A DNA stretch of 64,000 nucleotides. It comes from a phage. The position numbers and the translations under genes were made by a program. The notes beneath the pieces were generated by a model that saw only the letters and a program-made list of their open reading frames with translations, had not been told where the DNA came from and did no database searches. This document shows positions 12,515-40,877 of the stretch, one piece after another. Location of the stretch: sequence record PX418213.1; one strand, given 5' to 3'. Numbering within the stretch: the first letter of the stretch is position 1; each line of letters opens with the position of its first letter.

Positions 12515-12739
12515 TTAGATATTCTCACAGCTAAGGTAGAAACATTCGTAAGCATCACCAGTAAACTCTTTATCTTGTAGTATACACTTAGCCTGGTCTT
12601 CTGGTACTCCAGCATCTAATAATTGTTGTTTACTTGGCTTTTCAGCGAATACCTTTACAAAATATTCACCATCCTGATTATACTCATTTATATCTCTAGT
12701 AAGGACATATACTTGCATCTGAAGTTCCTTGAAACACAA
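12515..12739 (-). CDS. hypothetical protein
   Basis: 74-aa ORF. Confidence 0.5.
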   Translation of the reverse strand: MCFKELQMQVYVLTRDINEYNQDGEYFVKVFAEKPSKQQLLDAGVPEDQAKCILQDKEFTGDAYECFYLSCENI

Positions 12740-34540: not shown

Positions 34541-34700
34541 GTTGTTTCTCCAGTTTCATCTTTAATAGTCTACAAATAAAATCAATGTCTTCATCCGTGC
34601 CTAGATCTCTGTCTTCAAGAGTTGCCTTGAAGTTTTTAGTCAATTCCATGAGGATAACTTCCCTAGAACGACGTGTTGGCGGAGGTGGATGTCTATACAT
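34533..34700 (-). CDS. small hypothetical protein (55 aa)
   Basis: hand-translated MYRHPPPPTRRSREV...; AAGGAAA RBS; stop overlaps next start. Confidence 0.4.
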   Translation of the reverse strand: MYRHPPPPTRRSREVILMELTKNFKATLEDRDLGTDEDIDFICRLLKMKLEKQHG

Positions 34701-34715
34701 CTTATTTCCTTAATT

Positions 34716-34792
34716 TGGTAGGGGTGGTGGGATTCGAACCCACAAAACCTGAATTTTAAGTCCAGTACCTATGCCAATTCGATTACACCCCC
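34716..34792 (-). tRNA. atypical tRNA, anticodon TAA (Leu codon) but class-I length
   Basis: 77 nt; acceptor GGGGGTG/CACCCCT; D-loop GAATTGG; anticodon arm CTGGA-CTTAAAA-TTCAG; no long variable arm. Confidence 0.5.
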
Positions 34793-34893
34793 ATGTAATC
34801 AGTTTATTAGTTGATACATATTATAGCCTAGTGAAAATCCTACTACTAGTCCCACAAACCAACCAATATAATAATCTTTTAGTTTCACAGGTA

Positions 34894-35079
34894 TTATCCT
34901 CTTTCAATATCTAGAGAAATACCACAGTTAGGATTAATACCTGTACCCTTGCAATTTGGGCAAATCCATATATTGCAAAAAGTATCTCCTGCTTCTGCAT
35001 CAGAACTTTCACCAATTCCCCTACACTCAGGGCAGGCGCATTCTTCTAGCTCTTGCTTGAGTTCTTGAAACTTGGACAT
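34894..35079 (-). CDS. small zinc-ribbon-like protein
   Basis: 61 aa; CPECRG...CPNCKG. Confidence 0.5.
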   Translation of the reverse strand: MSKFQELKQELEECACPECRGIGESSDAEAGDTFCNIWICPNCKGTGINPNCGISLDIERG

Positions 35080-35088
35080 ATAGTCTCC

Positions 35089-35277
35089 TTAGTTAATTAC
35101 TTTTGAGGCTTCTAAAGCATTAACGTAGTAAACATCTTCTACATTATACATATAGTCTACTACTTTGTCCATAGCATGGAGTTCGGATGTAGCCTTTACT
35201 AGTCTGTACCCTTGTTTAAACTCGTCCGAACGTTCTCTATCTTGTGCAAATTTAACAGAAACTATGAATAATTCCAT
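35089..35277 (-). CDS. hypothetical protein
   Basis: 62-aa ORF. Confidence 0.45.
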   Translation of the reverse strand: MELFIVSVKFAQDRERSDEFKQGYRLVKATSELHAMDKVVDYMYNVEDVYYVNALEASKVIN

Positions 35278-35296
35278 TAATTGTCCTTATTTAATT

Positions 35297-35374
35297 TGGT
35301 GGCTCCCCGAGGATTCGAACCTACGTACCTTCCGGTTATGAGCCGGGTGCTCATACCATATGAGCTTGAGAACC
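35297..35374 (-). tRNA. tRNA, anticodon CAT (Met/Ile2)
   Basis: acceptor GGTTCTC/GGGAGCC with G-U pairs; loop CTCATAA; T-stem has mismatches. Confidence 0.5.
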
Positions 35375-35380
35375 AAAATC

Positions 35381-35469
35381 TGGCGGAAGAAGTGGGAATC
35401 GAACCCACAAGGCTATATTTCAAACCGACAGATTAGCAATCTGCTGCAATACCGTTATGCTATTCTTCC
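35381..35469 (-). tRNA. tRNA-Ser (GCT)
   Basis: 89 nt long-arm tRNA; acceptor GGAAGAA/TTCTTCC; anticodon arm GCAGA-TTGCTAA-TCTGT. Confidence 0.65.
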
Positions 35470-35484
35470 GAATTTATAAGATAT

Positions 35485-35513
35485 ATTATATTAGAAATTT
35501 AGCTTCATAGCAA
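35485..35513 (-). promoter_or_regulatory. T5-type promoter upstream of tRNA-Ser(GCT)
   Basis: TTGCTA, 17 bp, TATAAT. Confidence 0.6.
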
Positions 35514-39083: not shown

Positions 39084-39584
39084 TTATTTAATCAGATTAG
39101 CTTGACTTTCCACTGCTTCTGTAGCAGCTTTCTCAGCAATTCTAGCAGCTCGATTTGTCCTAGCTTTAGCAATTATCTTTTTATATTGTTCATCTATTAG
39201 ATCTTCTATCTCGTCATAGAATCTACATTGGTCTAGATAATTTATTGCATCAACATTATAAAGTTTTATATGTAATGCAGAGCTACGACCACCTTTCAAT
39301 GTGCTTTCTAAGATCTGTGGACGATAACGTCTAAGAGTATCTTTTGCCTTTTTAACTTCACCAGTTTCTTCTCCTAATTGGATTAGGTGATAAAGTCGGG
39401 TGTTATCAACGTAGTGCAGTTCAACACTGTGATATTCACCTTCACGAAGATTAAATCCGGTGAGTTTACTCATCTTTTCCTGTGCTTGTTCCAGTGTAAG
39501 CCGCTCCGTAAAATGAACTACGTACAGGATATGAGGACAACACATCTCTTGATGATCAAATATACAAGTAGTTCCTAGATTCAT
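39084..39584 (-). CDS. hypothetical protein
   Basis: 166-aa ORF. Confidence 0.5.
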   Translation of the reverse strand: MNLGTTCIFDHQEMCCPHILYVVHFTERLTLEQAQEKMSKLTGFNLREGEYHSVELHYVDNTRLYHLIQLGEETGEVKKAKDTLRRYRPQILESTLKGGRSSALHIKLYNVDAINYLDQCRFYDEIEDLIDEQYKKIIAKARTNRAARIAEKAATEAVESQANLIK

Positions 39585-39599
39585 AGATATATTTCCTAT

Positions 39600-40396
39600 T
39601 CTAAGTATTTTTAAGAATTCTCATAAAAACTCTTAAAAATACAGACGATACCGGGAGAGTCATAAGTCTCACTCATTAAGTATTTCAAGACAAAATACGG
39701 TAACGTCTATTATTTTCCAGTTTAAGTCAGGGTGACTTAGTGGTTATGTCCTGCGGTATATTGAGGACTCGGTTAGGCTTGGGGTCATGACTTCCCACCT
39801 TTTGCTGCTACTCAACAGGAGTTATCGCGAATTACCTGTGCTATTGTGCACCATTAGTGACATCTCTCATGTCAGCATTTCCCACTTTGTGGATAGCTTG
39901 AAAAACTACTCCGATATGGAGAAAGAACTTCACTATCCTAGAATACCTTCTAAAGTTCTTCTTTAGCCTGGACATAGTTAAATCGTAATAAAACTATTCA
40001 GCAGACTGGTTGGTTAGTCTGGAACCAACTACCGCGTGGTTTAGGCAGTGCGCAACTAACCTCGGAAGCTTTTACGTTAAAAGCACCAGTTATCCAGTTC
40101 TTACCGACCGTAGGATTCGAACCTACATCTTCCACCAGTTACGACTTGATAATACCAATTATACTAGGACGGCAGTGTTACTACATAAGTGATTTCCACA
40201 CCCCACTATTTATAAATTAGAGAAGAGTTTAGGGGAGAGGTTTCAGACGCCTCATTTTACACGTTCTAGCCACTAACCGGGATTGCCGCCCCCTGTGTAC
40301 TAGTTTTACAACTAACCCACCGACTCTATTCAATGCGCTCCGCTTGGGATTCTGCACTCAGCGTAATCGGCTCGCTGTTCCCTAATTTATGAATAT
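39600..40396 (-). ncRNA. about 800-nt non-coding transcribed region with degenerate tRNA-like element
   Basis: no ORF of 60 aa or more; lies between promoter 40397-40425 and gene 39084-39584; T-loop GGTTCGAATCC at 40113-40123 with imperfect acceptor. Confidence 0.3.
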
Positions 40397-40425
40397 ATTA
40401 TACAGAATTTATAAGCATTTAGCAA
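40397..40425 (-). promoter_or_regulatory. T5-type strong sigma70 promoter
   Basis: TTGCTA, 17 bp, TATAAT. Confidence 0.6.
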
Positions 40426-40433
40426 ATAAATTT

Positions 40434-40877
40434 TTAATTAAATTCTCCAGCAATCTGAGCAGCAGTACCACCATCATAACGCCCAGGAAATTCTTCCTTA
40501 ATCGCTTTCATCAGCATACCCTTTGTAATTCCAGGGTTTAGCTTAACTAATTCTGCAAAGTATTTACGAATCTCAGTATCAGATAACTGAGGAGGCAGAT
40601 ACTCCTGCAACCATTTATTTAGAATGTACTCATACTGAGCAGACTGCAAGCTATAACTATCAAGATCTTGACCATGAAGTTTAGCTTTCATCTGGTTAAT
40701 GCTTTTTAGTTGAGCTTTGAGATAAGACACAAATTGTTCAGAAGTGATGAAATCTTTATCAATACGCTGAAGATCCCCAATTATGGTCTGATAGCTTTTA
40801 GCGACTTCTTTATCAGAACCATTAAACTTAGAATCCTGCAAAGCTCTACGCAAAACATCTAAAATATTCTCTTCCAT
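40434..40877 (-). CDS. GatB/YqeY-domain protein
   Basis: 147 aa; C-terminal ...ITKGMLMKAIKEEFPGRYDGGTAAQIAGEF resembles YqeY family. Confidence 0.55.
   Translation of the reverse strand: MEENILDVLRRALQDSKFNGSDKEVAKSYQTIIGDLQRIDKDFITSEQFVSYLKAQLKSINQMKAKLHGQDLDSYSLQSAQYEYILNKWLQEYLPPQLSDTEIRKYFAELVKLNPGITKGMLMKAIKEEFPGRYDGGTAAQIAGEFN

What the first reader, a model, noticed from the sequence alone, without database searches (positions are those of the whole stretch)
39600..40396. About 800-nt transcribed non-coding stretch containing a degenerate tRNA-like element
The longest ORF-free segment in the early region lies between promoter 40397-40425 and gene 39084-39584. It contains a consensus T-loop (40113-40123) with a mismatched acceptor stem and no encoded CCA, suggesting a decayed tRNA or a tRNA-like regulatory RNA.
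Basis: seen in the sequence. Interest (0 to 1): 0.5.

Follow-up and report, generated by a model that had tools for sequence, protein, structure and literature searches.

The report
RNAX: large structured T5-phage RNA
This ORF-free stretch is the T5-family "RNAX" gene, a roughly 785-nt non-coding RNA with conserved structure and unknown function, which carries a swappable tRNA-shaped module and two self-complementary loops and resembles in outline the giant "ornate" RNAs that other phages keep beside their tRNA genes.

Summary
Window 39585-40433 has no ORF of 65 aa or more and no called tRNA. It lies behind a 10/12 sigma-70 promoter and holds a tRNA-like element (40102-40173, minus strand; Rfam tRNA 35.5 bits).

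The element is not an isolated decayed tRNA. The whole interval is the ortholog (97%) of "rnaX/RNAX, stable RNA with unknown functions", annotated in GenBank for BF23, T5 and DT571/2. Homologs of 637-1289 nt occur in about 530 phage records, including Klebsiella phages and Pectobacterium phage My1. None were found in E. coli genomes or plasmids.

Substitutions show no codon periodicity. A consensus structure is 93% paired, against 35-44% for slid controls, with 55 compensatory pairs.

The tRNA-like part caps a conserved helix (P2). Across relatives it is remodelled, truncated or replaced by a non-tRNA hairpin, and it has no conserved anticodon.

Two hairpin loops are self-complementary. One carries UCGCGA, CGCGCG, CUCGAG, CCGCGG, UGCGCA or GUGCAC depending on lineage. 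The other is invariant UCAUGA in Markadamsvirinae and the Klebsiella phages.

I read RNAX as a GOLLD/ROOL-like accessory RNA that probably self-associates. That last step is inferred. Function remains unknown, and T5 st0 lacks the gene.

The parts
40397..40425 (-). Early sigma-70 promoter (TTGCTA, 17 nt, TATAAT). Equivalent to 'promoter P16-17' of T5 and BF23.
   Evidence: 10 of 12 matches. BF23 and T5 annotations. The same promoter plus initial transcribed sequence recurs at other early promoters in related loci.
39606..40390 (-). RNAX transcript, about 785 nt. RNA position r = 40391 minus window coordinate.
   Evidence: 97.4% identity over 832 nt to BF23 rnaX. The 5' end at 40390 is inferred by analogy to the T5 PN25 promoter (own knowledge). 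The BF23 annotation maps to 39600-40383. The 3' end is set at the end of the conserved terminal hairpin.
40378..40390 (-). P1, 5' strand (r1-13, AUAAAUUAGGGAA).
   Evidence: Pairs with r167-179. Helices 1-3 are 97% paired, with 3 pairs compensatory. In T5 and DT571/2, P1 is a plain hairpin.
40225..40377 (-). Variable 5' domain inserted in the P1 loop (r14-166). Includes CAGCG/CGCUG and GCCGAUU/AGUCGGU, a possible pseudoknot.
   Evidence: The distance from the 5' end to the core motif is 35-406 nt in relatives (about 35 nt where the domain is absent). Replaced by an HNH ORF in phages H8, CitS1 and KFSSM. Helices 4, 6 and 9. My1 shows a compensatory change in CAGCA/UGCUG.
40212..40224 (-). P1, 3' strand (r167-179, UUCUCUAAUUUAU).
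   Evidence: helices 1-3.
40194..40208 (-). Core motif UAGUGGGGUGUGGAA (r183-197), nearly invariant.
   Evidence: Invariant columns in A2. GUGG may pair with CCAC at r352-355: 100% paired but invariant (helix 10). My1 has ACGG/CCGU at the same places.
40174..40193 (-). P2, 5' strand (r198-217).
   Evidence: helix 13: 12 pairs, 100% of cells paired, 5 pairs with changes on both sides. Recovered by the single-sequence MFE fold.
40102..40173 (-). tRNA-like module capping P2 (r218-289). T-loop UUCGAAU lies at 40115-40121.
   Evidence: Rfam tRNA 35.5 bits. ARAGORN gives no call here. In relatives, ARAGORN calls it in 9 of 50 with anticodons ACU, UCA or CGA.
40085..40101 (-). P2, 3' strand (r290-306, AGAACUGGAUAACUGGU). 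Contains the invariant GAUAACU.
   Evidence: helix 13.
40068..40084 (-). P3 hairpin (GCUUUU AACGU AAAAGC, r307-323).
   Evidence: helix 19: 2 compensatory pairs, 95.7% paired.
39858..39874 (-). Hairpin UGACAU-GAGAG-AUGUCA (r517-533).
   Evidence: helix 31: 5 of 6 pairs have changes on both sides.
39815..39838 (-). Hairpin ACAGG[UAAUUCGCGAUAACU]CCUGU (r553-576). Its loop carries the 6-nt palindrome UCGCGA at 39825-39830.
   Evidence: The loop palindrome differs by lineage while staying self-complementary. Local folds leave the loop open in most lineages, but the Klebsiella and phiR201 folds pair part of it. Shuffle test.
39776..39799 (-). Hairpin Hb (r592-615) with loop AGUCAUGA at 39785-39792. 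The palindrome UCAUGA lies within the invariant GAGUCAUGACC.
   Evidence: Invariant in all 50 sequences of A2 and all 21 of A3. The stems covary (helices 1-2).
39748..39768 (-). Hairpin GUCCU...AGGAC (r623-643).
   Evidence: helix 37: 100% paired, 4 of 5 pairs compensatory. helix 3: 5 of 5 compensatory.
39715..39747 (-). Invariant block AUAACCAC.AAGUCACCYUGACUUAAACUGGAA (r644-676): hairpin AGUCA-CCC-UGACU enclosed by CCA/UGG.
   Evidence: helices 4 and 5. Duplicated in T5 and L060.
39606..39641 (-). Terminal 16-bp hairpin (r750-785) with no U-tract. In T5 and BF23 it ends 5 nt before tRNA-Arg.
   Evidence: helix 44 (98.6% paired). Not a terminator by the scan. Conserved as far as My1 and the Klebsiella phages. 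Adjacency to tRNA-Arg.

Best explanation
The interval is the rnaX gene of a T5-like phage.

**Transcription (inferred from the promoter match and the curated T5/BF23 annotations).** Host RNA polymerase starts at a strong early promoter and makes a non-coding RNA of about 785 nt.

**Fold (supported by covariation).** The RNA has these parts:
- A 13-bp helix, P1, ties the 5' end to r167-179 and encloses a variable 5' domain.
- A nearly invariant junction, UAGUGGGGUG, follows.
- A long, regularly interrupted helix, P2, carries a tRNA-shaped module as a swappable cap.
- A 3' half holds several covarying hairpins.
- A 16-bp terminal hairpin closes the RNA.

**Stability (inferred).** P1 and the terminal hairpin probably protect the two ends. 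In T5 and BF23, RNase P cleavage at the abutting tRNA-Arg probably creates the 3' end. This would explain why the RNA was recorded as 'stable'.

**Most likely mode of action (about 35-40% likely, not demonstrated).** RNAX works as an architectural RNA particle, like GOLLD, ROOL and OLE. Two exposed hairpin loops with self-complementary sequences would make symmetric loop-loop (kissing) contacts between copies and build dimers or larger assemblies. One loop varies by lineage (UCGCGA here). The other is UCAUGA. The tRNA-like module would be peripheral cargo or decoration, like the tRNAs sometimes found in the GOLLD linker.

**Essentiality.** The RNA is an accessory function of the phage tRNA island and is not essential for growth on laboratory E. 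coli.
For: **Identity**
- 97.4% over 832 nt to BF23 rnaX, annotated 'stable RNA with unknown functions'.
- T5 and DT571/2 carry the same annotation.

**Non-coding**
- No ORF above 60 aa.
- Variable sites by phase are 58/59/60 (p = 0.98), against 27/9/50 (p = 4e-7) in the YqeY-like gene. Only 17% of indels are multiples of three.

**Strand**
- The promoter orientation points to the minus strand.
- Many G-U pairs exist only on the minus strand.

**Structure**
- Consensus structure on 50 distinct sequences: 93.0% of cells paired, against 87.5% for shuffles (0/500) and 35-44% for slid controls.
- 55 pairs have changes on both sides, against 12-21 for slid controls. 445 cells have such changes, against 40-125.
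- 3' core alone: 94.7% paired against 17-42%, covariation score 0.28 against 0.01-0.07.

**Modularity**
- Lengths run 637-1289 nt.
- The 5' domain is absent, short or long, or replaced by an HNH gene.
- The tRNA-like module exists in at least five forms, including a non-tRNA hairpin.

**Self-complementary loops**
- Only three places in the alignment carry a conserved palindromic 6-mer: the T-loop, r561-566 and r601-606.
- At r561-566 the palindrome is UCGCGA, CGCGCG, CUCGAG, CCGCGG (in two unrelated stems), UGCGCA, or GUGCAC in My1.
- It sits in an open 12-16-nt loop in most lineages, but local folds of the Klebsiella and phiR201 versions pair part of it.
- The chance that a shuffled loop has a 6-nt palindrome is 0.07-0.24 per loop. 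The joint value is 4e-3 for three independent lineages.

**Range**
- About 520-530 phage records.
- My1, of another subfamily, has a 939-nt homolog at the syntenic place.
- No match in E. coli genomes or plasmids.

**Dispensability**
- rnaX lies inside the segment deleted in T5 st0. That T5 st0 is viable is from my own knowledge.

**Parallels**
- GOLLD and ROOL are phage-encoded, lie near tRNA islands, sometimes hold tRNAs in the GOLLD linker, have a conserved 3' and variable 5' region (GOLLD), and are held together by kissing loops (PMC12286853).
Against: - No expression, end-mapping or oligomerisation data were available. 'Stable RNA' rests on a GenBank note, and no paper on RNAX was found.
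- No sequence or profile similarity to GOLLD, ROOL or any Rfam family other than tRNA.
- The palindrome argument is moderate statistically.
  - Two lineages (S124, NG_S8) have only ACGCGA, with a CGCG core.
  - In My1 the second loop is UCAUGC, leaving only CAUG self-complementary.
  - UCAUGA never varies elsewhere, so it gives no covariation.
  - Local folds of the Klebsiella and phiR201 versions pair part of the first palindrome instead of leaving it in an open loop.
- The 50 sequences represent roughly 8-10 lineages, so covariation cell counts are inflated by shared descent.
- Long-range helices differ between two alignments and are not settled.
- Whole-RNA MFE z-score is only -2.1.
- The 3' end in this window is not defined, because a 166-aa ORF, not tRNA-Arg, follows the terminal hairpin.
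Confidence: 0.55

Rival explanations
1. RNAX is a processing precursor. RNase P and 3' processing enzymes recognise the tRNA-like module and cut it out, as for MALAT1/mascRNA or mitochondrial tRNA punctuation. This would release separate 5' and 3' stable RNAs plus a small tRNA-like RNA, and the pieces would be the active species.
For: - The module passes the Rfam tRNA threshold.
- It keeps the acceptor and T arms, UA at positions 8-9 and a consensus T-loop in 40 of 50 sequences.
- RNase P cleavage is the likely source of the RNAX 3' end at tRNA-Arg in T5 and BF23.
- This rival is not exclusive of the main explanation, because P2 could hold the halves together after cutting.
Against: - The flanks of the module are base-paired in P2, 100% conserved with covariation. 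That is unlike single-stranded leaders and trailers.
- Position 1:72 is never Watson-Crick, and 5:68 is U.U in 36 of 45 sequences.
- There is no CCA.
- The module is replaced by a non-tRNA hairpin in 6 of 50 sequences and loses its D arm in one, while the rest of RNAX is kept.
- The curated records annotate one RNA of 719-784 nt.
Confidence: 0.2
2. RNAX is a tRNA-mimicking decoy. The module, or the whole RNA, would soak up a host factor that senses or attacks tRNAs, such as a tRNA-targeting defence nuclease or a modification or processing enzyme. This would complement the anti-defence role reported for T5 tRNAs.
For: - The gene lies in the tRNA island of a phage whose tRNAs are reported to counter tRNA-cleaving defences (PMC10644984).
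- The tRNA-like shape is retained in most lineages, down to My1.
- A YqeY-like protein is encoded immediately upstream. That this domain binds tRNA is from my own knowledge.
- The RNA is dispensable in the laboratory, as accessory anti-defence genes often are.
Against: - The anticodon arm and loop are not conserved: loops of 3-7 nt, long bulged arms, and 'anticodons' ACU, UCA, CGA or UAG. A decoy for anticodon nucleases is therefore unlikely.
- The module is dispensable in some lineages.
- The most conserved sequences are outside it.
- The Klebsiella phages lack the adjacent YqeY gene.
Confidence: 0.12
3. The interval is junk: a decayed tRNA gene plus spacer left over from tRNA-cluster turnover, transcribed only because it lies behind a promoter.
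For: - tRNA clusters in these phages are in flux. Gene content differs between T5 and BF23.
- ARAGORN rejects the element in this window.
- Homing endonuclease genes invade the region.
Against: - The sequence is conserved across three groups of Demerecviridae, with invariant blocks of 10-30 nt.
- Compensatory changes occur in many helices.
- The 'defects' of the acceptor stem are themselves conserved.
- It has a dedicated strong promoter and a conserved terminal hairpin.
Confidence: 0.03
4. The interval encodes several small proteins, as annotated by automatic pipelines in some relatives.
For: Hypothetical CDSs of about 30-65 aa are annotated inside the homologous interval in SB13, Boggle_ER46, Uniso31, K7_rec10 and others.
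Against: - There is no codon periodicity, and indels are mostly not multiples of three.
- The longest sense-strand ORF in this window is 45 aa, and ORF positions differ between relatives.
- The AUG in GAGUCAUGACC opens a reading frame of 4 to 14 codons depending on the phage.
- Other records leave the interval empty or annotate an RNA.
Confidence: 0.02
5. The conserved palindromes and blocks act at the DNA level, for example as a nick site, a protein-binding operator, a homing-endonuclease target or a replication element, rather than in RNA.
For: - Palindromic hexamers are typical DNA protein-binding sites.
- T5 DNA has site-specific nicks, and homing endonuclease genes sit in this region.
Against: - The palindrome changes sequence between lineages while staying self-complementary. 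That fits nucleic-acid pairing, not a sequence-specific protein.
- G-U pairs and strand-specific covariation indicate RNA.
- The nick annotated in BF23 lies about 1.1 kb away.
- The palindromes do not share the GCGC motif that I recall for T5 nicks (own knowledge).
Confidence: 0.03

Closest known systems
RNAX (rnaX) of phages T5, BF23 and DT571/2. GenBank AY734508, AJ604530 and NC_047749: 'stable RNA with unknown functions'.
   Same: - The locus is orthologous. It has the same promoter (P16-17) and the same upstream YqeY-like gene (T5.081), and leads to the same downstream tRNA-Arg(UCU) and Band-7 gene.
- Identity is 97.4% to BF23 over 832 nt.
   Different: - Here a 166-aa ORF with no known family separates the terminal hairpin from tRNA-Arg.
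- T5 and DT571/2 lack the 5' domain. T5 has a duplicated 3' motif.
- The database entries give no structure, family range or mechanism.
GOLLD RNA (Rfam RF01998) and ROOL RNA (RF03087): large 'ornate' phage and prophage RNAs that form RNA-only nanocages.
   Same: - Phage-encoded, several hundred to more than 800 nt, non-coding, and beside tRNA islands.
- Conserved 3' part and variable 5' part (GOLLD).
- tRNA sometimes embedded in a variable region (GOLLD linker).
- Quaternary contacts through kissing loops (PMC12286853).
- RNAX has conserved self-complementary loops.
- RNAX lies in a segment that T5 st0 lacks. Whether GOLLD or ROOL is dispensable was not checked.
   Different: - No covariance-model match, even at E up to 10. 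The helices and motifs are unrelated.
- Hosts are Enterobacterales and the phages are virulent siphoviruses.
- Oligomerisation of RNAX is only inferred.
HIV-1 dimerisation initiation site (DIS) and other kissing-loop dimerisation hairpins (own knowledge).
   Same: - A hairpin loop exposes a 6-nt G+C-rich palindrome flanked by purines (AA-NNNNNN-AUAA in several lineages).
- Natural variants change the hexamer but keep it self-complementary.
   Different: - There is no relation in sequence or context.
- The loop is 12-16 nt rather than 9.
- Dimerisation was not tested.
tRNA (Rfam RF00005) and tRNA-like processing signals (mascRNA type).
   Same: - Cloverleaf-like module with a consensus T-arm, UA at positions 8-9 and a D-loop GG.
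- It scores above the Rfam threshold.
   Different: - No conserved anticodon or 7-nt loop.
- Non-Watson-Crick 1:72, U.U at 5:68, and no CCA.
- Flanks are locked in helix P2.
- The module is replaceable by a non-tRNA hairpin.

Membership tests
RNAX (T5/BF23 rnaX) | Sequence similarity to the annotated rnaX genes. | tested here: met
   97.4% over 832 nt to BF23 AJ604530. T5 AY734508 is matched over the core.
RNAX (T5/BF23 rnaX) | Position: behind promoter P16-17, downstream of the YqeY-like gene and upstream of tRNA-Arg(UCU) and the Band-7 gene, on the same strand. | tested here: met
   One difference: a 166-aa ORF is inserted before tRNA-Arg.
RNAX (T5/BF23 rnaX) | Accumulates as a stable RNA in infected cells. 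| not testable with these tools
   Only the GenBank note is available. No paper or expression data were found.
tRNA (RF00005) | Covariance-model score above the gathering threshold. | tested here: met
   35.5 bits against 29. Relatives score 26-38 bits, against 44-69 for the true tRNA-Arg.
tRNA (RF00005) | Anticodon stem with a 7-nt loop and an anticodon conserved among orthologs. | tested here: not met
   In the window the arm is 3 bp with a 6-nt loop. ARAGORN makes no call in the window and of 50 relatives, with ACU, UCA or CGA. My1 has a 3-5-nt loop.
tRNA (RF00005) | Regular 7-bp acceptor stem with free single-stranded flanks and a CCA end. | tested here: not met
   1:72 is G-U or G.A in all sequences. 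5:68 is U.U in 36 of 45. No CCA is present. The flanks are paired in P2.
GOLLD / ROOL | Match to the Rfam covariance models (shared conserved helices and motifs). | tested here: not met
   No hit at E up to 10 on the window or at E up to 1 on six relatives.
GOLLD / ROOL | Large phage-encoded non-coding RNA beside tRNA genes, with extensive covarying structure. | tested here: met
   637-1289 nt, inside the tRNA region, with covariation.
GOLLD / ROOL | Homo-oligomeric RNA-only assembly. | not testable with these tools
   Only indirect evidence: two conserved self-complementary loops.
Kissing-loop dimerisation hairpin (DIS type) | Hairpin loop with a self-complementary hexamer that stays self-complementary when it varies. 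| tested here: met
   Six different palindromes at the homologous hairpin. Two lineages are imperfect (ACGCGA). Local folds leave the loop open in most lineages but pair part of it in the Klebsiella and phiR201 versions.
Kissing-loop dimerisation hairpin (DIS type) | Dimer formation that depends on the loop. | not testable with these tools
   Needs native gels or cryo-EM.
tmRNA | tRNA-like domain formed by the 5' and 3' ends, plus a tag reading frame. | tested here: not met
   ARAGORN finds no tmRNA. No tmRNA-clan hit is listed by Rfam beyond tRNA.
Protein-coding genes | Codon-periodic substitution, in-frame indels and a conserved ORF. | tested here: not met
   (58/59/60; 17% in-frame indels)..

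The most novel reading that the evidence does not exclude
RNAX is a third, evolutionarily unrelated class of self-assembling 'ornate' phage RNA alongside GOLLD and ROOL. Copies would join through two symmetric kissing loops into dimers or closed multimers, and the tRNA-shaped module would be displayed or enclosed. Because it sits in the model phage T5 and its relatives, which infect E. coli, the unknown biology of such giant phage RNAs would become genetically testable.
Probability: 0.3. Interest if true: 0.8.

Novelty: already known. Interest (0 to 1): 0.5.

Why it matters
The existence of this RNA is on record as a bare GenBank annotation in T5, BF23 and DT571/2, so the locus itself is not a discovery. 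I found nothing in the searchable literature describing its structure, family range or mode of action. Many recent genome records mis-annotate it as small proteins or as tRNA-Sec, Ser, Pro, Leu or OTHER.

This analysis shows several things:
- RNAX is a large, modular RNA family with conserved, covarying structure, present in roughly 530 Demerecviridae records.
- Its tRNA-like part is a replaceable cap on a conserved helix.
- It carries loops whose self-complementarity is preserved through sequence change.

If the inferred self-association is real, T5-like phages would offer a tractable E. coli system. A viable natural deletion, T5 st0, already exists. Such a system could ask what giant structured phage RNAs next to tRNA islands are for, a question still open for GOLLD and ROOL.

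A practical gain is that a covariance model for RNAX would clean up annotation of hundreds of therapeutic-candidate phage genomes.

Tried and rejected
- **Rfam scans.** Scans of the window and six relatives found only tRNA. No GOLLD, ROOL, tmRNA, RNase P or riboswitch match appeared. Other hits (SpF41, Hrs13, snoR83, Flavivirus 5'UTR) are far below threshold and treated as chance.
- **Literature.** Searches for RNAX, T5 stable RNAs, T5 transcriptomes and T5-like structured RNAs found nothing specific.
- **Host or plasmid origin.** BLAST against E. coli genomes and plasmids gave no match, so host mimicry by sequence is rejected.
- **Loose pattern scan.** The pattern GAGTCATGACC-N{12,42}-AACCAC in viral and genome collections was too permissive. 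Apart from known T5-like contigs, only one locus (L167) carried even two further RNAX motifs, and I judged it a chance match. Two stricter patterns found only T5-like contigs.
- **Long-range helices.** RNAalifold predictions differed between two alignments. UAGUGG paired with CCACUA at r648-653 in one and with CCAC at r352-355 in the other. I do not rely on them. My1 favours the second pairing.
- **Covariation scan for long-range stems.** It returned many G/U-rich artefacts, for example GGGGUGUGG with CUGUAUUUU. These were rejected.
- **Terminator reading.** The terminal hairpin has no U-tract and no scan hit, so this reading is rejected.
- **More distant T5-like phage.** In Vibrio phage pVp-1 the corresponding gaps are filled with 22 tRNAs, and the best model score is 11.5 bits. 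RNAX was not detected there.
- **Endolysin as a marker.** Using the endolysin to find distant relatives mostly recovered unrelated phage groups.
- **The 166-aa downstream ORF.** It matches no Pfam or PHROG family.
Full report
**What is in the window**

The window is the tRNA region of a T5-like phage, with 24 tRNA genes all on the minus strand. Between the YqeY-like gene (40434-40877, minus; PF09424 and phrog_1460) and a 166-aa ORF (39084-39584, minus) lie 849 nt with no ORF above 60 aa on either strand.

With a 65-aa cut-off this is the second largest ORF-free gap of the 64 kb. The only larger one holds two tRNA genes.

A sigma-70 promoter match (TTGCTA-17-TATAAT, 10 of 12) lies at 40425-40397 on the minus strand. 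Its -10 box and downstream sequence (TATAAT ATATTC ATAAATTAG) resemble the classic T5 early promoter PN25 (my own knowledge). By that analogy I place +1 at 40390.

G+C is 0.44-0.46 inside the interval, against 0.33-0.38 in the flanking genes.

Rfam finds a full-length tRNA match at 40173-40102 (minus): 35.5 bits against a threshold of 29, E = 1.2e-5. ARAGORN rejects it. The acceptor stem has G1-U72 and U5.U68, and no CCA follows.

**Identity**

BLAST against phage genomes finds the interval in 419-531 records.

- In BF23 (AJ604530) the homologous 784 nt are annotated as misc_RNA rnaX, 'RNAX, stable RNA with unknown functions'. They run from 'promoter P16-17' to the abutting tRNA-Arg.
- T5 (AY734508, 719 nt) and DT571/2 (636 nt) carry the same annotation.
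- Identity to BF23 is 97.4% over 832 nt.
- The T5 record is the 8.2-kb segment deleted in the st0 mutant, and rnaX lies inside it. That T5 st0 is viable is my own knowledge. RNAX is therefore dispensable on laboratory hosts.

I found no paper in the searchable library that describes RNAX.

**It is RNA, not protein or junk**

Among 29 close relatives, the 177 variable positions fall 58/59/60 over the three phases (p = 0.98). The adjacent YqeY-like gene in the same phages gives 27/9/50 (p = 4e-7). Only 17% of indels are multiples of three.

Automatic pipelines place 30-65-aa ORFs here in some genomes. Those ORFs are not conserved. Other records leave the interval empty or annotate an RNA.

**Family and modularity**

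I collected 50 distinct homologs (alignment A2) plus further loci. Lengths are as follows:

| Length (nt) | Phages |
|---|---|
| 637-639 | 5' domain absent, e.g. DT571/2 |
| 720 | T5 |
| 785 | this window, BF23 |
| about 800 | close Tequintavirus relatives |
| 822-1033 | Epseptimavirus (up to 1005-1006) and Yersinia phiR2-01 (1033) |
| 1238-1289 | Klebsiella phages; two of the records used are classified as Sugarlandvirus |

In phages H8, CitS1 and KFSSM an HNH endonuclease gene (PF13392) replaces P1 and the 5' domain. Its ATG lies 7 nt after the -10 box.

A covariance model of the 3' core (R1) gave a weak hit in Pectobacterium phage My1 of subfamily Mccorquodalevirinae. Reading that locus shows a complete 939-nt homolog at the syntenic place. 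It has:
- the same promoter and the same start, AUAAAUUA;
- P1;
- the GAACAGC...GCUGAG hairpin;
- the GGGGUGUCGAAAU core;
- a tRNA-like module, annotated there as tRNA-Leu;
- the GGGAGUCAUG hairpin;
- the terminal hairpin.

BLAST with the My1 RNA finds the T5-like RNAX core (E = 6e-10) and the terminal hairpin.

Vibrio phage pVp-1 shows no equivalent. E. coli genomes and plasmids have no match. Specific pattern scans of IMG/VR and metagenomes return only T5-like contigs.

**Structure**

An RNAalifold structure projected on A2 is 93.0% paired. Column shuffles give 87.5% (0 of 500 reach the observed value). Versions with the 3' partners slid by 1-3 columns give 35-44%.

55 pairs show changes on both sides, against 12-21 when slid. 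445 cells show such changes, against 40-125.

The best-supported helices, using r = 40391 minus the window coordinate, are:

- **P1**, r1-13 with r167-179. It encloses the variable 5' domain and is a plain hairpin in T5.
- **P2**, r198-211 with r293-306. It has 12 pairs, 100% paired, 5 of them compensatory. Single C.C and G.G mismatches divide it into blocks of four pairs. It continues into C216-G291 and U217-A290.
- **P3**, r307-323.
- **Hairpin r517-533**, with 5 of 6 pairs compensatory.
- **Hairpin r623-643**, with 4-5 of 5 pairs compensatory.
- **Hairpin r653-667**, invariant, enclosed by CCA/UGG.
- **The 16-bp terminal hairpin**, r750-785.

The 3' core alone gives 94.7% paired against 17-42%, and a covariation score of 0.28 against 0.01-0.07.

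Three caveats apply. The 50 sequences are about 8-10 lineages, so cell counts are inflated by shared descent. Long-range helices are not settled. The whole-RNA MFE z-score is only -2.1.

**The tRNA-like element**

It sits on top of P2. Its features do not fit a decoding tRNA:

- ARAGORN accepts it in 9 of 50 sequences, with anticodons ACU, UCA or CGA.
- Position 1:72 is G-U in 28 sequences and G.A in 22.
- Position 5:68 is U.U in 36 of 45 sequences with the module. BF23 and DT571/2 have U-A and A-U there.
- The T-loop is UUCGAAU in 40 of 50.
- My1 again has G1.A72 and U5.U68.

The module comes in several forms:
- the window type, with a 3-bp arm and a 6-nt loop;
- a form with a long bulged arm (GGGGAGCUAUCCCC or GGAGAUUAUAUCUCC);
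- a form with a canonical D arm (phiR2-01);
- a form lacking the D arm (L066);
- in six sequences, a roughly 55-nt non-tRNA hairpin closed by the same helix.

It is thus a replaceable cap, not the core.

**Self-complementary loops**

Scanning A2 for palindromic hexamers conserved by position gives only three places: the T-loop (UUCGAA, inherent to the consensus), r561-566 and r601-606.

At r561-566 the hexamer depends on lineage:

| Hexamer | Lineage |
|---|---|
| UCGCGA | this window and most Tequintavirus and Epseptimavirus |
| CGCGCG | T5 |
| CUCGAG | L021, 26175III, SB13 |
| CCGCGG | Klebsiella phages, and KFSSM in an unrelated stem |
| UGCGCA | phiR2-01, CitS1 |
| GUGCAC | My1 |
| ACGCGA (imperfect) | S124, NG_S8 |

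The stems differ completely between lineages. Each still forms a hairpin, and in most lineages the hexamer lies in an open 12-16-nt loop, often as AA-hexamer-AUAA. Local folds of the Klebsiella and phiR201 versions pair part of the hexamer instead.

A hexamer cannot pair with itself within one strand. Preserved self-complementarity therefore points to pairing between two copies, as in the HIV-1 DIS (my own knowledge).

The statistics are moderate. Shuffled loops contain a palindromic hexamer with probability 0.07-0.24. The joint value is about 4e-3 for three clearly independent lineages.

The second loop, AGUCAUGA (UCAUGA), lies within the longest invariant run of the RNA, GAGUCAUGACC. It is identical in all 50 sequences while its stems covary. 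In My1 it is UCAUGC, so only CAUG stays self-complementary.

**Most likely working**

*Shown or strongly supported:* a non-coding, minus-strand RNA of about 785 nt with conserved modular structure, orthologous to annotated RNAX.

*Inferred:*
- It starts at about 40390.
- P1 and the terminal hairpin protect the ends.
- In T5 and BF23, RNase P cutting at tRNA-Arg makes the 3' end, because the hairpin ends 5 nt before the tRNA.
- In this window the 3' end is open, because an ORF follows.
- The two palindromic loops mediate symmetric kissing contacts, giving dimers or larger assemblies (about 35-40% likely).

This matches in outline what cryo-EM showed for GOLLD, ROOL and OLE (PMC12286853):
- phage-encoded RNAs near tRNA islands;
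- a conserved 3' and variable 5' region in GOLLD;
- tRNAs sometimes in the GOLLD linker;
- kissing loops as inter-chain bridges.

RNAX has no profile similarity to these RNAs. It 'may work like' them but is not a member of their families. The cellular role remains unknown.

**Rivals**

- A precursor cut at the tRNA-like module. This is possible and not exclusive of the main explanation. The paired flanks, the non-Watson-Crick 1:72 pair and the replaceable module argue against it.
- A tRNA-mimic decoy. The anticodon arm is not conserved and the module is dispensable in some lineages.
- Junk or a decayed tRNA.
- Small proteins.
- A DNA-level element.

The last three are disfavoured by the covariation, periodicity and strand evidence. 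Details are in the rival list.

**Verdict**

The locus is already on record as RNAX, so novelty of existence is nil. Its structure, range, swappable tRNA-like cap and self-complementary loops appear undescribed in what I could search. They make a concrete, testable hypothesis in a model phage.

Noticed in passing
window 34541-35490: This is a second ORF-poor stretch (no ORF of 65 aa or more). It holds tRNA-Leu(taa) at 34716-34792 and tRNA-Ser(gct) at 35381-35469. The roughly 590 nt between them have neither a tRNA nor such an ORF. T5 records also mention another stable RNA (rna3) in the tRNA region.
   Followed up: no
L018 3488-3970 (phage H8); L072 817-1299 (CitS1); L085 1139-1621 (KFSSM): An HNH endonuclease gene (PF13392, E = 1e-11) replaces P1 and the 5' domain of RNAX. 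Its ATG lies 7 nt after the -10 box (TATAAT ATATTC ATG). It would therefore be expressed as a leaderless mRNA from the RNAX promoter, fused upstream of the remaining RNAX core.
   Followed up: partly
window 39084-39584 (-): A 166-aa ORF with no Pfam or PHROG family sits between the RNAX terminal hairpin and tRNA-Arg. It is absent at this place in T5, BF23 and DT571/2. A similar 169-aa ORF is present in some Epseptimavirus genomes (26175III, CitS1, GSW6, 1-29).
   Followed up: partly
window 40434-40877 (-): The gene directly upstream of the RNAX promoter encodes a YqeY/GatB-tail-like protein. That this domain binds tRNA is my own knowledge. The adjacency holds in Tequintavirus and Epseptimavirus but not in the Klebsiella phages, so a specific partnership with the tRNA-like module is only a thought.
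   Followed up: no
window 40088-40094 and 39820-39826 (r297-303 and r565-571): The heptamer GAUAACU occurs twice. One copy is the invariant 3' strand of P2. The other forms the 3' flank of the palindromic loop. This is unexplained. It could allow alternative pairing with UUAU at r203-206.
   Followed up: no
L044/L068 (T5) and L060: T5 and one metagenomic relative carry a tandem duplication of the conserved AAGUCACCUUGACUUAAACUGGAA motif in the 3' region of RNAX.
   Followed up: no
related loci, e.g. L003-L022 at about 595-651, 1923-1972 and 2763-2813: The first roughly 55 nt of the query (promoter plus initial transcribed sequence ATAAATTAG) recur at several other places in each T5-like locus. 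Early promoters of these phages therefore share a conserved module that extends past +1.
   Followed up: no
GenBank records of relatives: The tRNA-like module is variously annotated as tRNA-OTHER, tRNA-Sec(tca), tRNA-Ser, tRNA-Pro or tRNA-Leu. Some records place 3-6 small hypothetical CDSs on RNAX. An RNAX covariance model would remove these inconsistencies.
   Followed up: partly
L001 1397 (BF23 record position 12549): The BF23 record marks a site-specific DNA single-strand interruption about 1.1 kb downstream of RNAX, next to a bidirectional terminator. It is not inside RNAX.
   Followed up: no
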